Assembly: GCA_040904565.1 (NCBI GenBank)
Contig: JBBDTI010000094.1
Span: forward strand, 1 to 64,000
Direction: 5' to 3'
Length of the DNA: 64,000 nucleotides
Source: Rhodothermales bacterium
Lineage (GTDB): Bacteria > Bacteroidota > Rhodothermia > Rhodothermales > VXPQ01
A program made the translations under genes and the position numbers. The notes beneath the pieces were generated by a model. It saw only the letters and a list, made by a program, of their open reading frames with translations, did no database searches and was not told the origin of the DNA. Shown here piece after piece: positions 1 through 15,632 of the stretch (within the stretch, counting starts at the first letter, position 1; every line of letters begins with the position of its first letter).

Positions 1-467
1 AAGACCTTGGCCTTGAGACCTTCGCGAAGGGCACGGCGCGCTATAAGCAGGTCCGGTCGATCACGAAGACTAATTTCGGAACGCGCGAGTGGACACGCGG
101 CGTGGAGGACCCGGAGGGCGTCTTCGCCGAGTTGGACGTGCTCTACGACTACCTGCGGCTTTCCGATGAGGCCTCATCGCAGAAGGGGCTACTTAAGGAC
201 GCGACGGCGGATCTCTACCGCGCCGTGAAGGCGAATTATTCGGCGTTATCGGTGGAGGAGATCAAGACGCTGGTGGTAGAAGACAAGTGGCTCGCCACGG
301 TGGAGGACGCCGTCCGGTCTGAGGTGGAGCGCATCACCGGGCAGCTCGCCGGGCGCGTGCAGGAGCTGGAGGAGCGCTATGCCGAACCGCTGCCGGATAT
401 TGAGGATGAGGTAGGTATGCTCGCAAGACGTGTGGATAAGCATCTGAAGACGATGGGCGTGTTATGA
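1..467 (+). CDS. hsdM: Type I restriction-modification methyltransferase subunit, C-terminal part (5'-truncated by window)
   Basis: Frame is open from base 3. C-terminus VVEDKWLA...ELEERYAEPLP...VDKHLKTMG is typical of long HsdM proteins. Its stop overlaps the hsdS start. Confidence 0.85.
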   Translation, partial: DLGLETFAKGTARYKQVRSITKTNFGTREWTRGVEDPEGVFAELDVLYDYLRLSDEASSQKGLLKDATADLYRAVKANYSALSVEEIKTLVVEDKWLATVEDAVRSEVERITGQLAGRVQELEERYAEPLPDIEDEVGMLARRVDKHLKTMGVL

Positions 468-1678
468 AGGCTAGGTCGAAGAGAAACGAGTTGTCTGGAC
501 TCGCTGCCGATTGGCCTGTCGTTGAGTTAAGCGAGCTCCTTGTTAATTCGGCAACGTACGGCATCGTCAAAGCAGGAAACTTTCAGCGGTCCGGCGTGCC
601 CATGGTGCGTGGAGGCGACATCAAGGGTGGCCGGATTAATTTCAACCTGCCGTTCGTTTCCGAACGCAAAAGCGAAGAATATGACAGAACGCTCTTGGAA
701 GCGGATGACGTACTGATTGCCCTGGTCGGATATCCTGGGGAATCTGCTGTTGTACGGGAGTGGTTAGTTGGGGGGAATATATCACGGGCCGTCGGCCTAT
801 TGCGTCCGCGCGATTGCCTTAACTCGGAGTATCTTGCGTATTATCTGAATTCGCCATTGGGGCGACAGGAGTTCCTCAGACCCGGGGCCGGGTCGGCACA
901 GATCGTTGTCAATCTGAAAGATCTCAATCGGCTATCCGTCCCACATCCACCACTCCCCGAACAGCGCGCCATCGCCGCCGCACTTTCGGACGTGGACGCG
1001 CTGATTGCCAAGCTCGATGCGCTGATCGCCAAGAAGCGGGCCATCAAGACGGCCGCGATGCAGCGGCTGCTCACCGGCGAGCAGCGCCTGCCGGGCTTTA
1101 GTGGGGCGTGGGAGACGAGGCGGGTGTCGGAATTTGGTGATGTGATCACCGGCGGAACGCCGCCGACCGGGATTGGACGGTTCTGGGGCGGTGATAATCT
1201 ATGGGTAACACCTTCGGACATAGGCGCGAAGAAAGACATTCGCGTGACAGCGCGTACCCTCACTAGCGAAGGCCTCAACGTCTTGCGGATGCTACCTCGG
1301 GGAGCGGTACTAATTACTTGTATAGCGAGCCTCGGGAAGAACGCGGTACTTCCGGCTACGGGAGCGTGTAACCAGCAGATCAATGCTATCATTCCGAATG
1401 GACGTCACGATTCCGACTTCCTGTACTACCTTTTCGAGAATAACAAAGACGTTCTCCTCGCAAGTGCGGGAAAGACGGCTACGCACATCGTCTCGAAGTC
1501 GCGCTTCTCAGATCTGGCCTTTCTTGTTCCATCTATCTCAGAGCAAGAGGCCATCGCCGAAACCCTTTCCGATATGGACGCCGAAATCGATGCTCTGAAG
1601 GCCCGCCGCGACAAGACGCAGGCAATCAAGCAGGGCATGATGCAGGAGCTACTCACCGGCAAGACTCGCCTCGTATGA
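464..1678 (+). CDS. hsdS: Type I R-M specificity subunit
   Basis: Two variable TRDs, each followed by a conserved helical repeat (PPLPEQRAIAAALSDVD...MQRLLTG and PSISEQEAIAETLSDMD...MQELLTG). Confidence 0.97.
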   Translation: MKARSKRNELSGLAADWPVVELSELLVNSATYGIVKAGNFQRSGVPMVRGGDIKGGRINFNLPFVSERKSEEYDRTLLEADDVLIALVGYPGESAVVREWLVGGNISRAVGLLRPRDCLNSEYLAYYLNSPLGRQEFLRPGAGSAQIVVNLKDLNRLSVPHPPLPEQRAIAAALSDVDALIAKLDALIAKKRAIKTAAMQRLLTGEQRLPGFSGAWETRRVSEFGDVITGGTPPTGIGRFWGGDNLWVTPSDIGAKKDIRVTARTLTSEGLNVLRMLPRGAVLITCIASLGKNAVLPATGACNQQINAIIPNGRHDSDFLYYLFENNKDVLLASAGKTATHIVSKSRFSDLAFLVPSISEQEAIAETLSDMDAEIDALKARRDKTQAIKQGMMQELLTGKTRLV

Positions 1679-4600
1679 GTACCGTCGGCCAGCCTGAACG
1701 ACCCACTCAGAATCGTGTCATCGGTCTCATTCGTGACCGGGACGGGCTCGGCTACGGCTACCTCGGTAACTTGAAGGACCGGGCGGACAATCGGAACGTC
1801 GAATCGGACCTCCTCAGAAAGTGGCTGCGGGCCCGCAGGTTCAGCGAGAGGCTCATCGGCCGCGCGCTACATAAGCTCGGCCAGGCGGCGGCGCTGGGAT
1901 CCGGCACGAGCCTCTACGACGCCAATAAGGACGTCTACGAGCTCCTCCGCTACGGCATCAAGGTTAAGGAAGGAGCCGGCGAGCAGGCTCAGACCGTGCA
2001 CCTAATCGACTGGCACGACCCGGAAGCCAACGACTTTTATGTAGCAGAGGAGGTCACCGTCCGTGGTGAAAACGACAAGCGCCCGGACGTCGTTATTTAC
2101 GTCAACGGCATCGCCCTTGCCGTTCTGGAGCTGAAGCGCTCCATCGTTTCGGTGGCTGAGGGGATCCGCCAGAACCTCGACAATCAGAAGAAGGAGTTCA
2201 TCCAGCCGTTCTTCACTACGATGCAGCTCGTGATGGCGGGCAACGATACGGAGGGGCTGCGCTATGGGACGATCGAGACGCCGGAGAAATATTACCTCAC
2301 CTGGAAGGAAGAATCCCCGGACTGGACGCCGGGGGATCCGCCGTCAGAGAAATATCTCCCGATCGGAAATTGCGACGGCGCGGTAGGCGCGCTTGACTGC
2401 TCGCTGCTGCGTCTTCTACGTAAGGACCGCTTCTTGGAGATCATCCACGATTTCCTCGTTTTCGATGCCGGCACGAAGAAGCTGTGCCGCCACAACCAGT
2501 ACTTCGGCGTTCAGGCGGCCAAGGAGGCCGTTCGCCGCAGAGAGGGCGGCATCATCTGGCATACGCAGGGATCCGGAAAGAGCCTCGTCATGGTGTGGCT
2601 CGCCAAATGGATCCGCGAGCATGTGAGCGGCGCGCGCGTGCTCATCGTCACCGATCGGACCGAGCTCGACGACCAGATCGAGAGCGTTTTCAAGGGCGTC
2701 AACGAAGACATCTACCGCACAACCAGCGGCGCGGATCTCGTGCGCCGGCTGAACAACACCAACCCGTGGCTCATGTGCTCACTCGTGCATAAGTTCGGCC
2801 GCGGCGAGTCTGAGGCGATGGACAAGTACGTCGAGGACGTGCGGAAGAGCTTGCCGGCCGATTTCGAGGCCAAGGGCGAACTATTCGTGTTCGTCGACGA
2901 GGCGCATCGCACGCAGTCGGGCAAGCTGCACCAAGCGATGAAGACGATTCTGTCGGAGGCGACCTTTATCGGCTTTACCGGCACGCCGCTGCTGAAGGCG
3001 GACAAGCAGCGCACGATCGAAATCTTCGGCCCCTACATCCACACATATAAATTCGATGAGGCCGTCCGCGACGAGGTCGTGCTCGACCTGCGCTACGAAG
3101 CGCGCGACATCGACCAGGACCTCACCTCCCCGGAGAAGGTCGACCGGTGGTTCGAGGCGAAAACGCGCGGACTCACGGACGTGGCCAAGAGCCGCCTAAA
3201 GGCGAGGTGGGGCACCCTAAGGGAAGTGCACAGTTCCCAGCCGCGGCTCAAGAAGATTGCCGACGACATCCTGCTCGACATGAGCATTAAGCCTCGCCTT
3301 GCGGAGGGCCGGGGTAACGCCATGCTCGTATGTAGCAGCATTTATCAGGCCTGCCGGCTCTATCAGATCTTTGTTCAGACCGATCTCGAGGGACGGTGTG
3401 CAATTATCACAAGCTACAAGCCGTCACCCGGAGACATCAAAGGGGAGGAGACCGGTGAAGGACTGACCGAGAAGCTGACTCAGTACAAGATCTACCGCAA
3501 GATGCTCGCCGACTACTTCGATGAGCCGGAAGATACGGCCATGAACCGCGTCGAGGAATTCGAGCAGCAGATCAAGAAGAAGTTTGTGGAGCAGCCCGGG
3601 CAGATGAAGCTCCTCATCGTCGTCGACAAGCTTCTAACCGGCTTCGATGCGCCGCCGGCCACCTACCTCTACATTGATAAGACGATGCGCGATCACGGCC
3701 TCTTCCAGGCGATCTGCCGCGTCAACCGGCTGCATGGGGAGGATAAGGAATACGGCTATATCGTTGATTACAAGGACCTCTTCAAATCGCTCGAAGGGGC
3801 CATCAACGATTATACCGGCGGCGCCCTCGACGGCTACGACAGAGAGGACGTCCAGGGACTTCTCAAAGACCGGCTGCATGAGACTCGGAGTGACCTGGAG
3901 GCCGCTCTGGAAGCCGTAACGGCACTCTGCGAGCCGGTCGAGCCGCCCAGGGACACGCCGCAGTACATGGACTACTTCTGCGCCGAGGATACCTCCGACC
4001 GGGAGGCCGTGAAGGAGAATGCGCCGAAGCGCGCGGCCCTCTACAAGCACGTCGGGAAGCTCGTGAGGTCTTACGCCAACCTGGCAAACGAAATGCAGGA
4101 GGCCGGATACAGTCCCCGCGAAGCCGTAGCCATCCGCGACGAGGTGGCGCACTATGAGAACGTGCGCCGGGAGGTAAAGCTCACAAGCGGCGACGCGCCG
4201 GACTTAAAGGCCCTCGAGCCGTCCATGCGGCACCTGCTCGACACATATATCCGCGCGGAGGAAAGTGAGGTCGTATCCGAGTTTGAGGACATACCCCTCA
4301 TCGAGGCCATCGTAGAGCGAGGGCTCGGCGCCGCAACCGAGGCGCTGCCGGAGGGCATCCGGAAGGATAAGGAGTCCGTGGCGGAGACGATCGAGAATAA
4401 CGTTCGGACGACGATCGTGGACCGCCAGGACGTCAACCCGAAATACTACGAGAAGATGTCGCGCCTGCTCGACACGCTTATTCAGCAGCGCAAGGCGCAA
4501 GCGATAAGCTACAAGGCCTACTTGAAGAAAATCGAGGAGTTGTCCCGTCAGGTGATGCGACCTGAGGAGACCACGAGTTACCCGCCGCGTATCAACAGTC

Positions 4601-4818
4601 CGTCCAGGCGCGCGTTGTACGACAACCTGGACGAGCAGGAGGACCTGGCCGTCGACCTGGATAAGACGCTGCGGGAAACGAAAAAGGACGGCTGGCGCGG
4701 CAGCCACTTTAAAGAGCGCGAAGTGCGCAACGTAATCCGTGAGCAGCTGGCCGAATACGGCATCGAGACCCGAACCGAGGAGATCTTCGATTTAGTCAAG
4801 AACCAGAATGACTACTGA
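1675..4818 (+). CDS. hsdR: Type I R-M restriction subunit
   Basis: PD-(D/E)xK motif RPDVVIYVNGIALAVLELK, Walker A HTQGSGKS, DEAH box, LLTGFDAP and QAICRVNR. ATGA overlap with hsdS. Confidence 0.97.
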   Translation: MSTVGQPERPTQNRVIGLIRDRDGLGYGYLGNLKDRADNRNVESDLLRKWLRARRFSERLIGRALHKLGQAAALGSGTSLYDANKDVYELLRYGIKVKEGAGEQAQTVHLIDWHDPEANDFYVAEEVTVRGENDKRPDVVIYVNGIALAVLELKRSIVSVAEGIRQNLDNQKKEFIQPFFTTMQLVMAGNDTEGLRYGTIETPEKYYLTWKEESPDWTPGDPPSEKYLPIGNCDGAVGALDCSLLRLLRKDRFLEIIHDFLVFDAGTKKLCRHNQYFGVQAAKEAVRRREGGIIWHTQGSGKSLVMVWLAKWIREHVSGARVLIVTDRTELDDQIESVFKGVNEDIYRTTSGADLVRRLNNTNPWLMCSLVHKFGRGESEAMDKYVEDVRKSLPADFEAKGELFVFVDEAHRTQSGKLHQAMKTILSEATFIGFTGTPLLKADKQRTIEIFGPYIHTYKFDEAVRDEVVLDLRYEARDIDQDLTSPEKVDRWFEAKTRGLTDVAKSRLKARWGTLREVHSSQPRLKKIADDILLDMSIKPRLAEGRGNAMLVCSSIYQACRLYQIFVQTDLEGRCAIITSYKPSPGDIKGEETGEGLTEKLTQYKIYRKMLADYFDEPEDTAMNRVEEFEQQIKKKFVEQPGQMKLLIVVDKLLTGFDAPPATYLYIDKTMRDHGLFQAICRVNRLHGEDKEYGYIVDYKDLFKSLEGAINDYTGGALDGYDREDVQGLLKDRLHETRSDLEAALEAVTALCEPVEPPRDTPQYMDYFCAEDTSDREAVKENAPKRAALYKHVGKLVRSYANLANEMQEAGYSPREAVAIRDEVAHYENVRREVKLTSGDAPDLKALEPSMRHLLDTYIRAEESEVVSEFEDIPLIEAIVERGLGAATEALPEGIRKDKESVAETIENNVRTTIVDRQDVNPKYYEKMSRLLDTLIQQRKAQAISYKAYLKKIEELSRQVMRPEETTSYPPRINSPSRRALYDNLDEQEDLAVDLDKTLRETKKDGWRGSHFKEREVRNVIREQLAEYGIETRTEEIFDLVKNQNDY

Positions 4819-5557
4819 AGAGCGTCCGCCGGTCGTCGCCGAAGCCGTGCTCGAAGTCAGTGGCATCGAGGTCGAGGTCGTCCGCAAAGATATCAAAAAC
4901 GTTCACCTCAGTGTTTACCCGCCCTCGGGGCGCGTGCGGATTGCCGTCCCCGTTCACGTCGACGATGAGGCCGTCCGCCTCGCCGTAATCGACCGGCTCG
5001 ACTGGATCCGCCGCCAACAGCGCGAATTGGCCGAGCAGCCCCGCCAATCTCGGCGCGAGATGGTTACCGGCGAGAGCCACTACGTTTGGGGACACCGCTA
5101 CCTCCTTAATGTGATTCGACATCAGGGCCCGAACATTGTCCGTCTTCGCAAGCCCACGACGCTGGAAATGTTTGTGCGGCCCGAAGCCGGTGCGGAACGC
5201 CGCAGAGACGTGCTGGCCGAATGGTATCGGGAGCAGCTGAAAGAGCGCATCCCGCAACTCGTCACCGAGTGGGAGCCGGTGCTTGGCGTGGAGGTGGCCG
5301 AATGGGGCGTCAAGCAGATGAAAACCAAGTGGGGCAGCTGCACGCCCGACGACCGGCGCATCTGGCTCAATCTGGAGCTGGCGAAGAAACCGCCTGAGTG
5401 TCTGGAATATATCGTCGTGCACGAGATGGTACACCTATTGGAGCGGCACCACAACGACCGCTTTCGGGCGCTCATGGATCGATTCATGCCGAAGTGGCGA
5501 CTACACCGGGATACGCTCAACGCCGCTCCTCTATCGCATGAGGATTGGGGGTACTAG
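4808..5557 (+). CDS. M48/YgjP-like (DUF45, SprT-like) zinc metallopeptidase
   Basis: MKTKWGSC and YIVVHEMVHL (HExxH)...HNDRF motifs. Overlaps the hsdR stop. Confidence 0.9.
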   Translation: MTTEERPPVVAEAVLEVSGIEVEVVRKDIKNVHLSVYPPSGRVRIAVPVHVDDEAVRLAVIDRLDWIRRQQRELAEQPRQSRREMVTGESHYVWGHRYLLNVIRHQGPNIVRLRKPTTLEMFVRPEAGAERRRDVLAEWYREQLKERIPQLVTEWEPVLGVEVAEWGVKQMKTKWGSCTPDDRRIWLNLELAKKPPECLEYIVVHEMVHLLERHHNDRFRALMDRFMPKWRLHRDTLNAAPLSHEDWGY

Positions 5558-6167: not shown

Positions 6168-7655
6168 TTGATGAGCAATGGAGACGCGAGCAACGAGGAT
6201 ACGAGGTCAGTAGAAGCTTCGGACGTTGAGGCAGTGGCCGATCACGGAGATAATGGAGGTACTTGGTTGCCGGTCAAAATGGACGTAGCGTTGAAGACGC
6301 TGATCACATCGATAAACAACCGGTGCCTAGTCTTTTTTTGCGGTGCCGGACTTTCGATGGACCCGCCGAGTTCACTTCCGTCTGCCTATGCCCTCGTCCA
6401 GAAGCTGGAGGAGAAGTACCAGCGCTTGCATGGAGAGTCGCTAGTCGGTACGGTCGGCAACAAGATAGAGGAGATCGCGAAGTGGGCGTTGGACAATGCA
6501 CCAGAGTTCCAAAACTTCTTCCTGCCTACTATCAACTCCGAAGATTTCTTCAAGGCGTCCAATCCCGGTCACGAAACCGTTGCCGATTTCTTAATCGCTC
6601 GGATTGCAGAAGCGGCACTTAGTACGAATGTCGATTATCTGGTTGAACATGCCGCCAAGAAGCTGGGCAAAGGCCGGTTTCGTGGAGTTGTGAGACGAAG
6701 TCACTTTAATAGAAATCCGGACCACAGTCCCTTGTTGAAGGTGCACGGATGCTTCGACCATGAAGAACAGCACACCGTGTGGTGCGAACAACAGTTGAAT
6801 GAGGCACCCATCAGAGGGCGAGTCGAGCGCTTTCAGACTTGGATGCAGGAGCATCTTCCGGGGAAGGACCTCCTCGTAATCGGATACTGGACCGACTGGC
6901 CTCACCTCAATGAAACTCTGAACAGAAGTATACAGGATCATTATCCGCGATCCGTAACTCTCGTAGATCCGAGTAGCCCGGAGGAACTCAAGGAAAAAGC
7001 GGAAGGACTCTGGGAATGGGTCGATCAGAGCAACGATGTTAACTTTCAGCACGTCCGGGCCTGCGGCAACGAGTTCATGGAGCGCCTGCGCCAAGAGTTC
7101 TCCGCTTGGTTCTTCCGGGAGTTGCTACACGAGGTGAGGGATGAAGGGCGGGTTCTGGAGTATTATGGGGTCGCCTCGACGGAGCAAGTGAAGCTTCCTC
7201 CGCTAGACCACATGGCGATGAAGGACATCTACGATCTGCGCCGAGACTTCCAGGGAGTCCCAACGGGAAAGCCAGTGACCGACCGAGATCCGACGGGAGC
7301 AGCGTACGAGCGCGTAGGGGCTTTGCACCAGTTGTTGATGGAGGGGGCGGCAACTATGGAGGGGCGGCTATACAAATTGGGTGGAGCTGCCCTGCGACTC
7401 GTCAACAGTCAAGGCCGAGAGGTCGAACGCGTGAAAGACGAATTTGCACGGGCTGGGGACACGCCGCGCGGCGTGACGGCTCACGTCTGCGTCGGCTCTC
7501 GCGGCTCGCTTCCCGGTCGCCAGAATCTCGTGCGCGAGCCTACGGACGACGATGTCGTTCGGACTGGGCAGGCCCAGGTTTGGTGGACGGACGACGATCT
7601 AGTCCGCTACCTTCAGAACGAGACGGACTTACTCAACACGACCGAAGACGAATAA
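6168..7655 (+). CDS. SIR2-like NADase effector with C-terminal ABC-three-component-type domain (Lamassu LmuA-like)
   Basis: Sir2 motifs FCGAGLS, STNVD, LKVHG and VIGYW, plus a C-terminal extension of about 180 aa. First gene of an overlapping three-gene operon. Confidence 0.8.
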   Translation: MMSNGDASNEDTRSVEASDVEAVADHGDNGGTWLPVKMDVALKTLITSINNRCLVFFCGAGLSMDPPSSLPSAYALVQKLEEKYQRLHGESLVGTVGNKIEEIAKWALDNAPEFQNFFLPTINSEDFFKASNPGHETVADFLIARIAEAALSTNVDYLVEHAAKKLGKGRFRGVVRRSHFNRNPDHSPLLKVHGCFDHEEQHTVWCEQQLNEAPIRGRVERFQTWMQEHLPGKDLLVIGYWTDWPHLNETLNRSIQDHYPRSVTLVDPSSPEELKEKAEGLWEWVDQSNDVNFQHVRACGNEFMERLRQEFSAWFFRELLHEVRDEGRVLEYYGVASTEQVKLPPLDHMAMKDIYDLRRDFQGVPTGKPVTDRDPTGAAYERVGALHQLLMEGAATMEGRLYKLGGAALRLVNSQGREVERVKDEFARAGDTPRGVTAHVCVGSRGSLPGRQNLVREPTDDDVVRTGQAQVWWTDDDLVRYLQNETDLLNTTEDE

Positions 7656-8227
7656 TGGATCCACTAACGGCAGCACAAACGGAGCTCTCAAAGGTCGGCT
7701 ATGAGACCTGGCAGGAGCCGGACGAAACCGACCGGGTCTACTTCGAGGATCGAAGCGTCTTCGGAATGGTCACAACTTACGCGTCCGTCCGAGATCTTAT
7801 CGACGGGTATGAGGATCGGCAGAACCGATTCTTGCGGACCAATGAGAACGCACTTCGGTCGGCCAGCAACCAGGAGAAGGTGTGGAACGCCTACACGGTT
7901 CACCTCGCGGTTGGCGACTTCTCGGAGGCTGACCGTGAACATGCTGAGCAGGAAAACAAGCTCTTCCGTATCGAAGAAAACTTTCGAGGGACACGGAAGA
8001 TTGCCCGTGCCAACGTGACTGACGTCGAGGGTGTCGTCGCCGCACTCCTTCCGCTTCTCCCTATCCAGAGAAAACCGAAGTTGGCGGCAGAGGATTACCG
8101 AAAGCAACTCGAAGAGGAACTCCGCGAAGAGTTCGACGAAGCCTTCTTGAGCGTTCTCGACGAGAACGCGTTGCCCGTCGACATCGTGAACGACTTACTC
8201 CAGGACAGACCGGCCCAGGACCAATGA
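7655..8227 (+). CDS. ABC-three-component middle component (Lamassu LmuC-like), about 190 aa
   Basis: ATG at 7655 overlaps the upstream TAA (TAATG). WNAYTVHL...IEENFRGTRKI pattern resembles MC1-type middle components. Lies between the effector and the SMC ATPase. Confidence 0.65.
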   Translation: MDPLTAAQTELSKVGYETWQEPDETDRVYFEDRSVFGMVTTYASVRDLIDGYEDRQNRFLRTNENALRSASNQEKVWNAYTVHLAVGDFSEADREHAEQENKLFRIEENFRGTRKIARANVTDVEGVVAALLPLLPIQRKPKLAAEDYRKQLEEELREEFDEAFLSVLDENALPVDIVNDLLQDRPAQDQ

Positions 8228-10413
8228 GACTATCACGCATCGAGATTTCTGGCTTCCGGGGCGTTCGAGACGCCATTGACCTCCGTCTGCCTTCCGGCTT
8301 CACGGTCATTTCCGGGCGCAACGGCTCGGGGAAGAGCACCTTCTGCGACGCGATCGAGTACGTCTTCACTGGAGATATACGAAGAGAGTCGGACTACTCC
8401 GAAAATCAGGAGGGCTACGCTGACTACATCCGGTGGCAAGGCGAGGGAGCGCCGTCCGACGGCACATTTGTCCGGCTCTACGTCCGGGATGACGATAGAC
8501 GCGAGATCGTTCTAGAGCGTGAGTTTGAGAAGCCTCTCGTGGTGCGCCGGAGCGTTGGTGGAGACGGGGCACCGGACAATGAATTCGAAAGTGCAAGTGC
8601 AGAAGAGGAAGTTGTTTCTTGGCTGTGTGATCCCGGGCAGGCTCCTGACAGTCCTCTCCGCCGCTTGTGCGAGACCTCGATCATTCGCGACGAGCGTATT
8701 ACCGACCTTAGCGTGGAAGCTGGTGAAAGAGACCGGTACAAGTTCGTGCGGCGAGCTCTGGGTATGGACGTGTTTGCCGATTCCATGGAGCGCACCAAGA
8801 AAGTATGCGATAAACTAAAAGAGAAGGTCCGCGATCTGGAGCCGCGGTTGGAGAGGCATGAGATTGAGGTCAACAGGCTCCAGTCGGAAATTGACGCGGC
8901 TCGTGACGAAGCCGAAGACATCGAAAGCGTTGAGATATCGGTTGCGTTTGTAAAGGACCAACTTGCTAAAGCGGATCGACTGGACGCTGACGAGGAAATC
9001 AGCACGACCGAACTCGCTACACGGGCGCGAAAGCTGGTTATCGATCTCCGTGAACAGGCCAATGAACTTGCTCACGCGCTGAGCGACTTCAACGAGCTGC
9101 GTAACCGTATCGAGCGCTATCGGGAAGGGGGCGAGACCGCGCAGCGGCTGAAAAAGCTGTCGGGTGAGATCGAGGAATTACAAAGCCGAATTAAGCAGGT
9201 GGAAGCCCGCAAGAAGGCCCTGGAAGCCGAGCTGGAAGCTTTTCAGAAGCGACAGCCGGACTCAGCGAATTTGGCCGAGCTTCACCGTCTTGGGGAAGAG
9301 ATCGGGCTGACGGAAGTTGGCGAATGCCCGCTCTGTGGAGAGTCGCCCACGCCTGAGGAGTTTGAGGCCAGCCTACGACGACTCCGGAGTACCGTGGATG
9401 ACATCATCGATCGGATCGACAACCTGAACGGCCAAATCGATCAGCAAACAGAACAGCTCAACCCACTCCGTAGCCAGAAGGAAGAGCTTGTGAAGGAACG
9501 GGACGAGGTTCGCGATCAGCGAGCGACTCTCATCTCGCAACTGAACGCCGTCCGAGAACGCGCTGACGATGTGCTTGAAGACCGAAAGGAGGATGCTGGA
9601 CAGGTAGACGAAAAACCTGCCACGGACAACCAGAACGCTCAGCAAGAGGTCCCTGACCTAGATTCCGGCAAGCTAGAACGCGAAATTAACGAACGCAGGC
9701 GACTGCGGACCCAACTGGACGAAAAAGTGTCCGATGTCGAGGCGTCGCTGGCGCTTAAGAAAATTGAGAACCTCCAGGCTAGGCTCGACGAGGAACGACA
9801 GAAACGAGAGGAGACCCAGGAAGAGCTCAGGTACACGCGTGAGAGACACGAGCAGGCCGACAAGGTTCGGCAGCGCGTCAAGAGCGAAGCGGGACAGGTG
9901 CACAAGGACCGAATTCGCAAGCTGGCACCTCTCCTCACAGAACTATATTCGCGGCTACGACCGCACGTCGACTGGATGAACCTGGAGACGAAAGTTCGGG
10001 GAAATATCCAGCTGTATCTCCGGTTCGACGTAGATGGCAAAAACCCGAGTCTCTTCTTTAGCAGTGGCCAGCGGCGGGCCGTGGGACTGGCATTTCTCCT
10101 CGCGGTCCATCTAGGCTGCACGTGGAGCCGGTTTAATACGCTCATTCTCGACGATCCCGTTCAGCACATCGACGACTTCCGAGCGCTCCAACTGACCGAG
10201 CTATTGTCTGCAATTCGACGATCCGGCCGTCAAATAATCGTGACCATAGAGGACGAAGCCCTCGCGCGCCTTCTGCGCCGCCGCTTGCGCAGTAGCGATG
10301 CCGAGGAAGGCCAGCACGTCCAGATGGTGTACGACGCCAGGAGCGGTGCCCGGATCAGTAAGCAAACCGTGATCGGATCGATGCCGGAGCGAGTACTTGC
10401 AGGCGTGGGCTAA
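8224..10413 (+). CDS. SMC/Rad50-like ABC ATPase (Lamassu LmuB-like)
   Basis: Walker A GRNGSGKST, long coiled coils, central zinc-hook CPLCG, signature FSSGQ and Walker B LILDDPVQHID. Confidence 0.9.
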   Translation: MRLSRIEISGFRGVRDAIDLRLPSGFTVISGRNGSGKSTFCDAIEYVFTGDIRRESDYSENQEGYADYIRWQGEGAPSDGTFVRLYVRDDDRREIVLEREFEKPLVVRRSVGGDGAPDNEFESASAEEEVVSWLCDPGQAPDSPLRRLCETSIIRDERITDLSVEAGERDRYKFVRRALGMDVFADSMERTKKVCDKLKEKVRDLEPRLERHEIEVNRLQSEIDAARDEAEDIESVEISVAFVKDQLAKADRLDADEEISTTELATRARKLVIDLREQANELAHALSDFNELRNRIERYREGGETAQRLKKLSGEIEELQSRIKQVEARKKALEAELEAFQKRQPDSANLAELHRLGEEIGLTEVGECPLCGESPTPEEFEASLRRLRSTVDDIIDRIDNLNGQIDQQTEQLNPLRSQKEELVKERDEVRDQRATLISQLNAVRERADDVLEDRKEDAGQVDEKPATDNQNAQQEVPDLDSGKLEREINERRRLRTQLDEKVSDVEASLALKKIENLQARLDEERQKREETQEELRYTRERHEQADKVRQRVKSEAGQVHKDRIRKLAPLLTELYSRLRPHVDWMNLETKVRGNIQLYLRFDVDGKNPSLFFSSGQRRAVGLAFLLAVHLGCTWSRFNTLILDDPVQHIDDFRALQLTELLSAIRRSGRQIIVTIEDEALARLLRRRLRSSDAEEGQHVQMVYDARSGARISKQTVIGSMPERVLAGVG

Positions 10414-10645: not shown

Positions 10646-11674
10646 CTAGTCGGAAATGCCCGCGTCCTTTCGTAGCTGCTTCAAGCCGTCCGCGCCTAGC
10701 TCAGCCGCGAACTCTCTGATTTTTGAATTCGCGTGCTGATACGTGATCGGCTCGCCGTCGGCCTTTAGGAGCGCCTTGCTGCTCTTTTTCCACATAAGCT
10801 GTTCGAGATGATTATAAATTGCACTTCTGTTGGGCAAGCCTTTACGTTCCCCATTTCGGTGCCAACATTTACGTTTCGTCGACAGTAGGTGCAGTACAGC
10901 CGCCCTAAAGTCGTCTTCCCGCATTGTCGCCGGACGACCGCGGTCTTCATCCACTACGTCCTTCGCATCATCAAGCGACATTTCTTTGATTTGTCCGTAG
11001 ACCTCGAACTCGAACAATATTTTTTCGAGCGATCTCACGGACCTGGCAATCCACCCAAACGTGCGGGCAAGTGCGTGTGCACTGCTCTCTTCTTCCGAAA
11101 TACGCGCATCGATGCTCCTCAAGGCGTCGCCGATTGTGGCATCGGCAAAAAGAGGTACATAAAGCGAATCGAATCCAGCTTTACCGGGAATGATGTAGTC
11201 GCGGTTGTAATCAGATCCAGCCTCGGGTGGTAGCCCGAGCAGAGACCGCGTCTCTACGCAATCTGGCATGGCCTCTCCCATCCTGGCGTTCTCACCCAAC
11301 TTATCCCTCAATCTCGCGATATGATCTCTAAGCCGGCGTAATTCGTGGAGTCGCGACTTTCTCGTCTGCGTAGCTTCGGTGCTTGTCAGGGCGTAAGCGT
11401 CGTCGATCTCCTCGGCGACTGCGTCAAGATGTATCCGGAGCCTTTTCCGTAGCTGCAACAGGCTTTCGTAGTCATCCGGTAAGGCTCTTACATAGCGGTT
11501 ATAGCTATCCTGAAAAATCTTGTATAGCTGCTCCCACGCATCTTCCTCGATATCCGCAGCCTCAGCATCGTCGCAGAGCCAGAACCAATCTCCTAAACAG
11601 TGCGATGGCAGGTCATCGTCGACGACGACCGTCGTATATCGGCTGATGATTCTGGCGAATTTGCTAGCCTTCAT
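10646..11674 (-). CDS. Hypothetical protein, possible C-terminal helix-turn-helix
   Basis: 342-aa ORF whose start overlaps the integrase stop by 11 nt. No family recognised. Confidence 0.7.
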   Translation of the reverse strand: MKASKFARIISRYTTVVVDDDLPSHCLGDWFWLCDDAEAADIEEDAWEQLYKIFQDSYNRYVRALPDDYESLLQLRKRLRIHLDAVAEEIDDAYALTSTEATQTRKSRLHELRRLRDHIARLRDKLGENARMGEAMPDCVETRSLLGLPPEAGSDYNRDYIIPGKAGFDSLYVPLFADATIGDALRSIDARISEEESSAHALARTFGWIARSVRSLEKILFEFEVYGQIKEMSLDDAKDVVDEDRGRPATMREDDFRAAVLHLLSTKRKCWHRNGERKGLPNRSAIYNHLEQLMWKKSSKALLKADGEPITYQHANSKIREFAAELGADGLKQLRKDAGISD

Positions 11675-12896: not shown

Positions 12897-13101
12897 GGTA
12901 CAACATAGGTATAACAATTTTTGATACGTACCGCAACGGCAACCCCCTTCAGGATCCACTTTTCTGTCTGGTACTCGAGTACGCGGCACCTAGTGTAACT
13001 CGCGCTTACAACCGATTACAGACGTTGCAATCCAGTACCGCCCACTATCATTTTCCTCGAGACCTTGGATTTTAGTGGCTTGATTCTGTTTAGGTACAAC
13101 A
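12897..13101 (+). repeat. Three GGTAYAACA direct repeats, putative integrase arm-type sites
   Basis: GGTACAACA at 12897-12905, GGTATAACA at 12908-12916 and GGTACAACA at 13093-13101, all between the integrase start and the att core. Confidence 0.5.
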
Positions 13102-13157: not shown

Positions 13158-13178
13158 TCGACTCCTGCCGGGATCACC
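13158..13178 (+). other. att site: 3' fragment of a tRNA gene (probably a tRNA-Arg isoacceptor)
   Basis: TCGACTCCTGCCGGGATCACC looks like a T-loop/T-stem plus acceptor 3' strand. It matches the tRNA-Arg(TCT) in this window at 14 of 15 nt (TCGAGTCCTGCCGGG). No 5' tRNA half is present upstream. Confidence 0.7.
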
Positions 13179-13478: not shown

Positions 13479-14272
13479 ATGTGGCTGAACGGCAAGAGCG
13501 CCAATACCGTCGAAGCGTACACACGTGACGTCAGCCGTTTCCTACGCCACACAGGCCGCTCGCTGAGCGATGTTCGGTTGGAGGATATCCAAGACTACGC
13601 CGCCAGTCTGGAGGGCTTAGCGGCCGACACACGAGCCAGAAAGCTCGCTGCGGTCAAATCGCTCGGCACGTTCGCCCACGAAATCGGATATTCCCGGTTC
13701 AATGCCCGGCGGGCGGTGAAGCTGCCGAACTCGAAGAACGAGCTCGCCGAACAAATCCCTACGGAGTCGTAGGTTCAAAACATCGTCGCGTGCGAGACGA
13801 ATGACCCCAACAGGGGGCTCCTGCGGCTCCTCTACGAAGCAGGCCTGCGCGTCTCCGAGATCTGCGGGCTCCGCTCGCGCGAAGCGCAGAAACGCGACGA
13901 TGCAGGTCAGATCACCGTCCACGGAAAGAGCGAGAAGACCCGGCATGTGCTGCTGTCGGCCGAAAGGTGGCGCGAACTCGTACAGCTGCGCGACGGTATG
14001 GGCGACGACGATCCTGTCTTCGAGAGCCGGAAGGGCGGTTGCCTGTCCCGCGTGCAGGTATGGAATATTGTGCGGAAGGGCGCCAGCCGCGCCGACATCG
14101 AACGGAACATCTCGCCGCATTGGATGCGTCACGCACATGCCTCGCACGCGCTCGACCGCGGCGCTCCCGTTCATCTGATTAAGGATACGCTCGGGCACGC
14201 CACGCTCGCGACGACGTCGCAGTATTCCATGCGAGGCCGGGGGATTCGAGTGCACGTTACCTTTCCGTTTAG
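13479..14272 (+). pseudogene. XerC/D-like tyrosine recombinase pseudogene
   Basis: SAM-like N-domain and catalytic GLRVSE, HGK, HWMRHAHA and LGH...Y all lie in one frame, broken by an in-frame TAG at 13770-13772. A 1-nt frameshift near 14226 separates the natural tail HARPGDSSARYLSV* (stop 14270-14272). Confidence 0.85.
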
Positions 14273-14297
14273 GATCCCACCTGTATCAGTAACACGA

Positions 14298-15632
14298 TCA
14301 TAGTTCTTTAAGCCGAGTAGAGAGGTCCCGCGGCGCGACAAACACGAACGAGCGACCGCTCCTGCCTTGATGCAGCAGTTGCCTTTCGACGAGGTCAAGC
14401 AGATCTGTCCGGGAAGTCTGGTAAGCTACCCGGTGACTCGTCTGGTGTGAACGAATGGTATACCGCATTCCTGGATGTTTCAATGCATGGCTTAGCAGAG
14501 CAAGCTGGCGATGATTAAGATCCGACGACTGACGAAGTAGCTCGGCCGTCTCGCGAATCTCTGCGATCTTCCGGACCAAATACGCCCGTAGCTCATCGAT
14601 CGCCCTGCAAATTACGCTTAGTTGTGAAAGGATGAAGTAGGTAAGATCGTTCTCGTCTGTTTCCGTATAGAGAAACGACCGCCCATACCTTGCGGGCGCC
14701 TTTTTAAGAATCGTCGAGATGGAGATGAACTCGAAGAGCCAGAAATCTTGCCTAAGCATCAGCCAGTAAAAAAGGGCTCGCGCTGTCCGGCCGTTACCGT
14801 CGACAAAGGGATGGTCGTAAGCAAGCCAGAAGTGCAAAATGGTCGCCTTCAAGACCGGATGCAGAAATACGCCGGTCTGGGCTTCGTTGGCGAAGTCGCA
14901 CATGCCGGCCATTCGCTCCGGGATCTCACTGGCTGGCGGTGGGGCATGCAGAAGCACGTTGTTCGTGTTATCGTAAACACCAATACCGTCACCTTCGCGT
15001 CGGAAGTAGTCGTCAGGTGTAGGCAACGTGCCGTCGGTGATCGTGCGATGTATGTGGACTACGAGCGCCGGAGAAAGCTCTTCGTCCTTTAGCTCTCCGA
15101 TCAGCTCCATCGCACGATAATTATTCAAAATCATTCGCTCACTCTTGTTCAGGGGTCGGCGCCCTGTCCGAATCATCTCCTTGGCGTCCTCTCTCGTTGA
15201 GACAGCGCCCTCAAGCTGACTGGATGTGATCGCTTCTTCAATTAGTGAGTTTTGAACGTACCGATCTCGGGTCTGCGGATTTGTTACGGGCTCGGGCAGA
15301 GAAATCTGCCCGCTTGCCTCTCGGTCGATCCGATGCAACATTTCAAGCGCCGGATCCGGGAGTGTATAATGGAAGTTTTGCCCCGACTTAGCCCTGAGCG
15401 GTACGTCTCGTCTAATTGACGATCGGGCCATTTTGATCGCCAACCAATACTCTTCCGAACTCAGGCCATCTGGCGGGGGCACACGTCTATGCGTATCCCA
15501 ATGCCTATATTTACCGCCAGGCGCGGGACCGATTTTCCGAGAGAACAGATCGCCGTAGAACTCCGGCCCTCGGGATTTCATGACCCTTTGCAGGAGTTCG
15601 CCGGTCGCCGGCGGCCTTTTTGGAATCCTCAT
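14298..15632 (-). CDS. Fic family protein (class II-like, C-terminal HTH)
   Basis: Canonical HPFVDGNGRTAR, N-terminal inhibitory-type motif SSQLEG and a C-terminal HTH-like segment. Confidence 0.95.
   Translation of the reverse strand: MRIPKRPPATGELLQRVMKSRGPEFYGDLFSRKIGPAPGGKYRHWDTHRRVPPPDGLSSEEYWLAIKMARSSIRRDVPLRAKSGQNFHYTLPDPALEMLHRIDREASGQISLPEPVTNPQTRDRYVQNSLIEEAITSSQLEGAVSTREDAKEMIRTGRRPLNKSERMILNNYRAMELIGELKDEELSPALVVHIHRTITDGTLPTPDDYFRREGDGIGVYDNTNNVLLHAPPPASEIPERMAGMCDFANEAQTGVFLHPVLKATILHFWLAYDHPFVDGNGRTARALFYWLMLRQDFWLFEFISISTILKKAPARYGRSFLYTETDENDLTYFILSQLSVICRAIDELRAYLVRKIAEIRETAELLRQSSDLNHRQLALLSHALKHPGMRYTIRSHQTSHRVAYQTSRTDLLDLVERQLLHQGRSGRSFVFVAPRDLSTRLKEL

What the first reader, a model, noticed from the sequence alone, without database searches (positions are those of the whole stretch)
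6168..10413. Three-gene Sir2-effector / middle component / SMC-like ATPase system (Lamassu-like)
Seen: three ORFs joined by TAATG and ATGA overlaps. ORF1 keeps the Sir2 NADase residues (GAGLS, TNVD, KVHG) and has a long unique C-terminus. ORF2 is a 190-aa protein with WNAY...IEENFRGTRK. ORF3 is a 729-aa Rad50-like ATPase with a CPLC hook and an intact FSSGQ signature. Known: Lamassu/ABC-three-component systems have this effector-MC-ATPase layout, and Sir2 effectors deplete NAD+. Inference: a long-LmuB-type variant that may be too divergent for current models. No Mre11/SbcD nuclease is adjacent, so it is not SbcCD.
Basis: partly seen in the sequence, partly recalled or inferred. Interest (0 to 1): 0.72.

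Follow-up and report, generated by a model that had tools for sequence, protein, structure and literature searches.

The report
Long-type Lamassu defence with Sir2 effector
Three overlapping genes encode a Sir2-fold enzyme, a small partner protein and a Rad50-like ATPase, a trio kept together in many unrelated bacteria that likely works as a known kind of anti-phage system (long-type Lamassu) by destroying NAD+ in the infected cell, so it is real but mostly ordinary.

Summary
The three ORFs, both overlaps and all quoted motifs are present; ORF1 probably starts at ATG 6171. ORF1 has a Sir2 fold closest to anti-phage NADases, with the catalytic Asn and His in 102 of 102 homologues. ORF2 belongs to the ABC-3C MComp1 (LmuC) family. 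ORF3 is an LmuB with the long-type marks: DD Walker B and one central CxxC. The trio stands in this order in 128 of 141 related loci. ORF2 is predicted to dock on ORF3's head (0.74 against 0.00). Long Lamassu with a Sir2 effector is already classified (PMC12663957), though untested by that paper's account. Two family traits stand out. The effector's C-terminal domain matches no Pfam ABC-3C CTD and was seen only with Sir2. The ATPase has Glu at the switch-His position and a new His in the D-loop in 102 of 102 intact homologues. Whether this is the paper's long-Sir2 clade could not be checked. Verdict: new member of a known kind; interest 0.3.

The parts
6171..7655 (+). LmuA-like effector, 494 aa: Sir2/NADase-type domain (about residues 32-315; GAGLS 58, N153, D155, H192) plus a family-specific alpha/beta C-terminal domain (about 340-494)
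   Evidence: Pfam SIR2_2 E 1.1e-8; model pLDDT 86.5; VIA Z 19.5, rmsd 3.4, 257 aligned to SeThsA; N, D and H in 102 of 102 homologues
7188..7655 (+). C-terminal domain of ORF1, presumed docking and oligomerisation domain (role inferred)
   Evidence: Folds alone at pLDDT 85.8; no Pfam CTD hit in 44 members; joined to this Sir2 domain in 84 of 84 full-length hits among the 150 listed
7655..8227 (+). LmuC / ABC-3C middle component (MComp1 family), 190 aa, start overlaps ORF1 stop (TAATG)
   Evidence: 26 of 30 family members hit PF20289 at E<=0.1; 6 of 30 hit PADLOC LmuC, best 5.1e-7; Atlas features 0.92 to clusters with an MComp1 minority; predicted to bind ORF3
8224..10413 (+). LmuB, Rad50/SbcC-like ABC ATPase, 729 aa: Walker A 31-38, one CPLC hook at 368, signature FSSGQ 612, Walker B LILDD 640, D-loop His648, Glu676 at the switch-His position; start overlaps ORF2 stop (ATGA)
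   Evidence: PADLOC LmuB E 1.1e-55; Rad50 best in PDB, E 7.8e-12; motif counts; tree

Best explanation
The three genes encode a Sir2-fold effector, an MComp1-family middle protein and a Rad50-like ATPase that likely form a long-type Lamassu (ABC-3C) abortive-infection system, in which the ATPase would sense foreign DNA and likely switch on NAD+ destruction. Shown here: the three intact overlapping genes, their families, their conserved order and the conserved catalytic residues. Predicted here: LmuC sits on the LmuB head and head-proximal coiled coil, the place where SbcD binds SbcC. Inferred from solved short Lamassus and other Sir2 effectors: an LmuB dimer joined at the zinc hook holds one LmuA inactive through its C-terminal domain; binding a DNA end or replication intermediate, with slow ATP turnover, frees LmuA; freed LmuA oligomerises, hydrolyses NAD+ and arrests the cell before the phage or plasmid completes its cycle. 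I put the family assignment near 0.9 and the release-and-oligomerise step near 0.6.
For: LmuB best PADLOC hit E 1.1e-55. MComp1 in 26 of 30 ORF2 family members. Sir2 fold nearest ThsA, KomC and Avs5 (Z 19.5, 19.0, 18.3), above classical sirtuins (Z 15.7 at best). N153 and H192 align with DSR2 N133 and H171, the residues mutated in the DSR2 catalytic control, and are kept in 102 of 102 homologues. Trio in 128 of 141 loci, whose LmuBs with the window's form 26 clusters at 50% identity. One CxxC in 103 of 103 and DD Walker B in 102 of 103 (the exception is frameshifted). LmuC-LmuB model score 0.74, best of 3 controls 0.00; the mark was reached by 116 of 157 solved complexes and 2 of 215 mismatched pairs; runs agree in at least 88% of contacts; partner pLDDT at least 81. 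The tree puts the family outside SbcC and outside the short LmuBs. Accessory and mobile: 1 of 285 genomes of the host's order, the window's own; beside type I R-M, an integrase and a Fic gene; PADLOC hits flank 18 of 25 chosen loci (no background control).
Against: No activity, protection or expression was measured. The LmuA C-terminal domain matches no Pfam ABC-3C CTD and shows no significant profile match to CTD1 or CTD4. It was seen only with Sir2, so the effector swapping typical of Lamassu was not found. Grouping with the four MComp1 long LmuBs is weak (84/66 and 96/78, long-branch warning). LmuB is shorter (median 682 aa) than the ~800 aa quoted for long types. The switch His is replaced, so ATPase activity is not assured. 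The activation model in the papers read comes from short Lamassus with nuclease effectors. The complex score may reflect likeness to solved Rad50-Mre11/SbcCD structures.
Confidence: 0.8

Rival explanations
1. Same defence system, different switch. LmuA stays on the LmuB heads and is activated in place by head engagement, as Mre11 is on Rad50, or it uses NAD+ for ADP-ribosylation or a signal instead of bulk depletion.
For: LmuC is predicted at the heads, not at the coil apex as in short Lamassus, and PMC12663957 predicts LmuA at the heads in long types. The C-terminal domain is unlike the helical bundle that drives short LmuA tetramers. It was seen only with this Sir2 domain, which fits a fixed allosteric coupling.
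Against: The nearest solved folds are bulk NADases, several solved as helical filaments; the ADP-ribosylating SirTM scores lower (Z 12.7). Release and oligomerisation is reported in all three structural papers read.
Confidence: 0.1
2. A selfish addiction module. LmuBC is simply the antitoxin that keeps a toxic NADase quiet, stabilising the island or plasmid that carries it, with no DNA sensing.
For: Tight translational coupling. Found on 13 plasmid records and beside an integrase here. Several copies are interrupted by IS elements.
Against: A ~680-aa ATPase with invariant Walker A, signature and zinc hook is far more than an antitoxin needs. Tested Lamassus need the ATPase for defence. Two loci have lost lmuA and one has lost lmuB while keeping lmuA (L056).
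Confidence: 0.06
3. A DNA-repair complex: an SbcC/Rad50 substitute with a regulatory sirtuin (deacylase).
For: Rad50 is the best PDB sequence match; signature and hook are intact. No sbcCD was found in this genome, so a gap could exist.
Against: No nuclease subunit. The family lies outside the 19 SbcC rows (100/99). Present in 1 of 285 genomes of the order. GC3 is 0.64-0.69 against 0.78-0.79 in three neighbouring host genes. The Sir2 domain is closer to anti-phage NADases than to deacylases.
Confidence: 0.04

Closest known systems
Long Lamassu with Sir2 effector (Haudiquet, Chakravarti et al., PNAS 2025, PMC12663957)
   Same: lmuA-lmuC-lmuB order; Sir2 effector; Walker B hhhhDD; one CxxC; LmuC predicted at the LmuB head with a second small C-terminal part; LmuA C-terminal domain with helices and a beta-sheet.
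   Different: LmuB median 682 aa against ~800. Switch His replaced by Glu with a new D-loop His ('H-loop' has 0 occurrences in the preprint text). Whether this family is their long-Sir2 clade is unknown: Table S3 and the SI PDF could not be read.
MComp1-type ABC-3C systems with CTD1 or CTD4 effectors (Pfam PF20289, PF20276, PF20280; four genomes fetched here, L158-L161)
   Same: MComp1 middle gene, DDP Walker B, one CxxC, same gene order; nearest group in the tree, weakly.
   Different: Their effectors carry CTD1 (3 of 4) or trypsin plus CTD4 (1 of 4). They keep the switch His (STHD in 3 of 3 with a complete tail). This family's C-terminal domain gives no significant match to either CTD.
Short Lamassu / DdmABC (Vibrio cholerae, Salmonella; solved structures)
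   Same: Three-gene layout and SMC-like sensor; source of the sensing and release model.
   Different: Different LmuC and LmuA CTD families, Walker B D[Q/S/T/E], partners at the coil apex, nuclease effector; a separate clade in the tree (99/97).
Anti-phage Sir2 NADases ThsA, KomC, Avs5, DSR2
   Same: Fold (Z 19.5, 19.0, 18.3; DSR2 top in Foldseek, E 1.1e-9) and catalytic Asn/His.
   Different: Only the Sir2 domain is shared (11-21% identity in the Foldseek rows); no SLOG, STAND or DSR sensor region. The sensor here is a separate SMC-like ATPase.
SbcCD / Mre11-Rad50
   Same: Split ABC head, long coiled coil, central zinc hook, predicted partner site at the head-proximal coil.
   Different: No nuclease; DD rather than DE Walker B; shorter coils; His switch kept in 19 of 19 SbcC rows but not here.

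Membership tests
Lamassu / ABC-3C (type II) | Operon effector - middle component - SMC-like ATPase, conserved as a unit | tested here: met
   128 of 141 loci, 98 of 101 with room
Lamassu / ABC-3C (type II) | ATPase matches LmuB models better than other SMC-like families | tested here: met
   PADLOC top four hits are LmuB, best 1.1e-55; all listed NCBIfam Rad50/SMC/SbcC hits are under their cut-offs
Lamassu / ABC-3C (type II) | Middle gene of an LmuC / MComp family | tested here: met
   Met at family level: 26 of 30 members hit MComp1, best 2e-9; 6 of 30 hit PADLOC LmuC. The window's own protein is under the Pfam cut-off
Lamassu / ABC-3C (type II) | Effector carries a recognised ABC-3C C-terminal domain | tested here: inconclusive
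   No Pfam CTD hit in 44 members; hhalign to CTD1 scores 12.3, inside the 9.4-15.9 range of 30 controls. A folded alpha/beta domain is present but no CTD1/CTD4 model was folded for a structural comparison
Lamassu / ABC-3C (type II) | Effector domains are exchanged on a shared C-terminal domain | tested here: inconclusive
   84 of 84 full-length hits carry this Sir2 domain, but only the best 150 of 276 hits were listed
Lamassu / ABC-3C (type II) | Anti-phage or anti-plasmid activity needing all three genes | not testable with these tools
   Needs a bench assay
Long Lamassu (PMC12663957) | Walker B hhhhDD | tested here: met
   LILDD in the window; DD in 102 of 103 homologues, the exception frameshifted
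Long Lamassu (PMC12663957) | Exactly one CxxC zinc hook | tested here: met
   103 of 103, at 0.48-0.54 of the length
Long Lamassu (PMC12663957) | LmuC binds at the LmuB head like the SbcD tail | tested here: met
   Predicted only: 0.74 against best control 0.00, contacts at LmuB 179-201, 533-583, 630-692 and 719-726
Long Lamassu (PMC12663957) | LmuB falls in the long clade; length about 800 aa | tested here: inconclusive
   Groups with four MComp1 long LmuBs at 84/66 only; 729 aa here, family median 682; the paper's reference set was not available
Long Lamassu (PMC12663957) | Member of the paper's long-Sir2 clade | not testable with these tools
   Table S3 is beyond the part of the supplement that is held; no DefenseFinder models here
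Anti-phage Sir2 NADases | Sir2 fold with catalytic Asn and His | tested here: met
Anti-phage Sir2 NADases | NAD+ hydrolysis on activation | not testable with these tools
   Needs an enzyme assay
SbcCD / Mre11-Rad50 | Partner metallophosphoesterase nuclease gene next to the ATPase | tested here: not met
   None adjacent; no TIGR00619 match in the genome
SbcCD / Mre11-Rad50 | ATPase within the SbcC clade, DE Walker B and His switch | tested here: not met

The most novel reading that the evidence does not exclude
This family is a separate branch of long Lamassu that current models miss, with its own effector-docking domain (possibly a dead restriction-endonuclease fold) and a rewired ABC active site: the Glu at the switch position would act as the general base in place of the lost Walker B Glu, and the new D-loop His would replace the switch His from the partner head. 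It would be a natural ABC ATPase with the catalytic Glu-His pair moved to new positions, and a ~680-aa step between SbcC and short Lamassu.
Probability: 0.3. Interest if true: 0.55.

Novelty: new member of a known kind. Interest (0 to 1): 0.3.

Why it matters
As a single locus it adds little: Sir2-armed long Lamassu is a named class. It is useful as a test case. PMC12663957 lists only one validated long Lamassu, with hydrolase-protease effectors, and the structures in the papers read are of short types. A compact, widespread, highly conserved family with an easily assayed NADase could show whether the proposed SbcCD-to-Lamassu intermediate senses DNA ends and releases its effector, or activates it in place. 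The fixed His-to-Glu and D-loop His pair offers a direct handle on the open question of whether LmuB must hydrolyse ATP (raised). The PADLOC and Pfam models used here miss two of the three genes in this window, so counts based on them may leave the family out.

Tried and rejected
A single-sequence scan of GTDB contigs with ORF2 confirmed none of 302 candidates; the alignment-based scan worked. ORF2 has no PDB sequence match at E<=10, and its profile gave no significant match to one SbcD sequence, which is too weak a test to speak against the SbcD-tail idea. ORF2 was not folded on its own for a PDB search; both folding jobs went to ORF1. The C-terminal domain gave no Foldseek hit at E<=0.001 and a best VIA Z of 4.4 (rmsd 4.2, 86 aligned); many of the 50 rows at Z 2.8-4.4 are restriction-endonuclease-fold chains, but this is within the tool's noise. 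The Atlas feature search of that domain peaked at 0.80, a chance-level score. By eye the last ~80 residues echo the CTD1 tail, but hhalign did not support it. No match in 50,697 phage records; one IMG/VR contig holds the trio beside Vsr and a serine recombinase. A viral scan for CTD4 relatives found nothing. No RNA holder was listed, which says nothing on expression; run X1 may be this DNA's source and run X2 holds only short pieces about 95-99% alike. No Rfam match, no sigma-70-like promoter upstream and no repeat array that I judged meaningful. Krishnan et al. 2020 is not held; it is known here only through citations and Pfam names. Paper searches for 'Lamassu-Sir2' and 'long Lamassu' returned only the PNAS paper and its preprint; a search on H-loop, D-loop and Rad50 listed nothing on Lamassu. 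Subscription journals are largely outside this library. No AU test and no mixture model were run on the tree. Look-ups of earlier findings by sequence, place and one word set were blank.
Full report
Observation. All quoted motifs are present. ORF1 more likely starts at ATG 6171 (494 aa), since its closest homologues begin MSNG. Residue numbers below use that form.

ORF1. Pfam gives SIR2_2 above cut-off (E 1.1e-8), and 42 of 44 aligned relatives hit it at E<=0.1. The model (pLDDT 86.5) matches SeThsA at Z 19.5 (rmsd 3.4, 257 aligned), KomC at 19.0 and Avs5 at 18.3, with the best classical sirtuin at 15.7; Foldseek ranks DSR2 first. N153 and H192 align with DSR2 N133 and H171, the pair mutated in the DSR2 catalytic control (PMC10973363, one passage). 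N153, D155, K190, H192 and G193 are kept in 102 of 102 full-length homologues (set filtered to 420-500 aa). NADase activity is inferred, not shown.

ORF2. It has no PDB sequence match and scores only 14.1 bits on Pfam MComp1 (cut-off 27.3). At family level the link is clear: 26 of 30 aligned members hit MComp1 at E<=0.1 (best 2e-9), 6 of 30 hit PADLOC LmuC (best 5.1e-7), and the Atlas lists clusters with an MComp1 minority at feature score 0.92 and an MComp1-named cluster at TM 0.49/0.50.

ORF3. The four best PADLOC hits are LmuB models (best E 1.1e-55); Rad50 is the best PDB match. Among 103 homologues (filtered to 650-740 aa with a complete 3' end) the median length is 682 aa, every one has exactly one CxxC near the middle, and 102 have a DD Walker B. 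The exception, L107, is frameshifted there.

The trio is conserved. An ORF2 alignment fetched 61 GTDB loci and the best 80 of 158 metagenome matches. All three genes stand in order in 128 of 141, and in 98 of 101 loci with room for them. The three exceptions look decayed. The loci were picked by ORF2 motifs and are not independent, but their LmuBs with the window's form 74, 44 and 26 clusters at 90, 70 and 50% identity, and the 61 named loci span Pseudomonadota, Planctomycetota, Acidobacteriota and others. The ATGA junction between lmuC and lmuB recurs in 114 of 133 loci.

Complex. LmuC was folded with one LmuB: score 0.74, best of 3 controls 0.00; the mark was reached by 116 of 157 solved complexes and 2 of 215 mismatched pairs (counts hold only roughly with my own alignments); runs agree in at least 88% of contacts and partner pLDDT is at least 81. 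Contacts lie on the LmuB head (630-692, 719-726) and head-proximal coil (179-201, 533-583), with the tightest from LmuC 132-139 and 177-178. This is the placement PMC12663957 predicts for long LmuC. The pass may come from likeness to solved Rad50-Mre11 or SbcCD structures. LmuA was not in the job.

Tree. On 371 head columns of 63 ATPases (LG+G4, no mixture model), 22 family rows form one clade (100/100), apart from 19 SbcC-like rows (100/99) and 15 short-LmuB-like rows (99/97). The family groups with four MComp1-type long LmuBs only weakly (84/66; 96/78 with the protease system, flagged as long branches meeting). The 'short' and 'SbcC' labels are mine, from length, motifs and upstream gene size. 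Duplicates, ORFs open at the locus end and some near-copies were left out.

Context. Upstream lie a type I R-M system and a YgjP-like peptidase; downstream an unknown 342-aa ORF, a tyrosine integrase, a broken second integrase and a Fic gene. The operon is 56.8% GC against 61.5% for the genome, and GC3 is 0.64-0.69 against 0.78-0.79 in three host genes and 0.81 in hsdR. The effector family was found in 1 of 285 genomes of the host's order, the window's own, and no close LmuB in 40 relatives (best E 7.9e-7). PADLOC hits at E<=1e-12 flank 18 of 25 loci that I chose out of 141, and 12 of 25 at E<1e-29; some are generic ATPases or helicases and there is no background control. Thirteen plasmid records carry the effector; the two opened show the trio next to restriction genes, one with lmuC split by IS21.

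Known work. PMC12663957 (parts 1-5 of 8 read) divides Lamassu into short and long, defines long by about 800 aa, hhhhDD and one CxxC, lists Sir2 among long effectors, and names one validated long system, which is not Sir2. Its system table and SI PDF could not be read, and they bear directly on novelty. Passages were read from its preprint, PMC10586767, the 2022 preprint that first lists SIR2 Lamassus and two structural preprints. Oligomerisation of Sir2 effectors rests on search listings, abstract openings and PDB titles. Earlier notes of this scan record other long Sir2 Lamassus; I did not test them.

What is unusual. First, the C-terminal domain (340-494) folds well alone but matches no Pfam CTD in 44 members, whereas four reference MComp1 systems carry CTD1 or CTD4. 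Profile comparisons with those were not significant. Its profile finds 276 clusters; of the 150 listed, all 84 full-length ones carry this Sir2 domain. Second, the ATPase has Glu676 where the switch His normally sits and His648 in the D-loop, both in 102 of 102 intact homologues. The switch His is kept in 19 of 19 SbcC rows, 3 of 3 complete long MComp1 rows and 12 of 15 short rows, and none of the 41 non-family rows shows this Glu/His pair. The canonical role of the Walker B Glu and switch His is recalled textbook knowledge. That the two changes compensate for each other is my inference and untested; the site could simply be slow or dead.

Verdict. A real, well conserved operon that works like, and on the testable features belongs to, long-type Lamassu with a Sir2 effector. 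New member of a known kind, interest 0.3, with about a 0.3 chance of being a distinct branch with a rewired ATPase site.

Noticed in passing
window 13158-13177: A 20-nt stretch matches (19 of 20) the 3' end of a contig-truncated tRNA on G000:C79 whose anticodon loop reads TTT (Lys, my reading; ARAGORN did not call it). It lies just upstream of the integrase start at 12989 and is followed by a hairpin and a T run, so it may be an attachment site bounding the island.
   Followed up: partly
window 1-5557: Type I R-M system (hsdM tail, hsdS, hsdR) followed by a YgjP-like metallopeptidase, directly upstream of the operon.
   Followed up: partly
window 10646-11674 (-): 342-aa ORF between the operon and the integrase with no hit in PADLOC, NCBIfam or PHROGs and only chance-level Pfam hits.
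   Followed up: partly
window 13479-14303 (+): Second tyrosine recombinase interrupted by an in-frame stop between its N-terminal and catalytic domains.
   Followed up: partly
window 14298-15632 (-): Fic-domain protein, best PADLOC hit SoFic E 1.2e-38.
   Followed up: no
window 6171-10413: The window's LmuA and LmuB are more acidic (D+E 16.0% and 20.4%) than all 102 and 103 distant homologues (medians 11.8% and 14.7%), and LmuB has acidic insertions near residues 105-122 and 461-474. It may reflect a salt-adapted lineage; not tested.
   Followed up: partly
L047 6635-7984, L067 6674-8289, L031 7029-8174, L225 7509-9598: IS elements sit inside the operon in at least four loci (between lmuC and lmuB, in lmuB, or in lmuC), which may mean the system is costly.
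   Followed up: partly
L159 2786-9001 and L226 806-9841: Two Lamassu operons lie directly beside an sbcD/sbcC-like gene pair: a CTD1 long Lamassu upstream of one and this family downstream of one on a plasmid.
   Followed up: no
G000 whole genome: No SbcD match and no SbcC over cut-off in this 94.9% complete genome, although SbcC-like genes were found in genomes of the same order.
   Followed up: no
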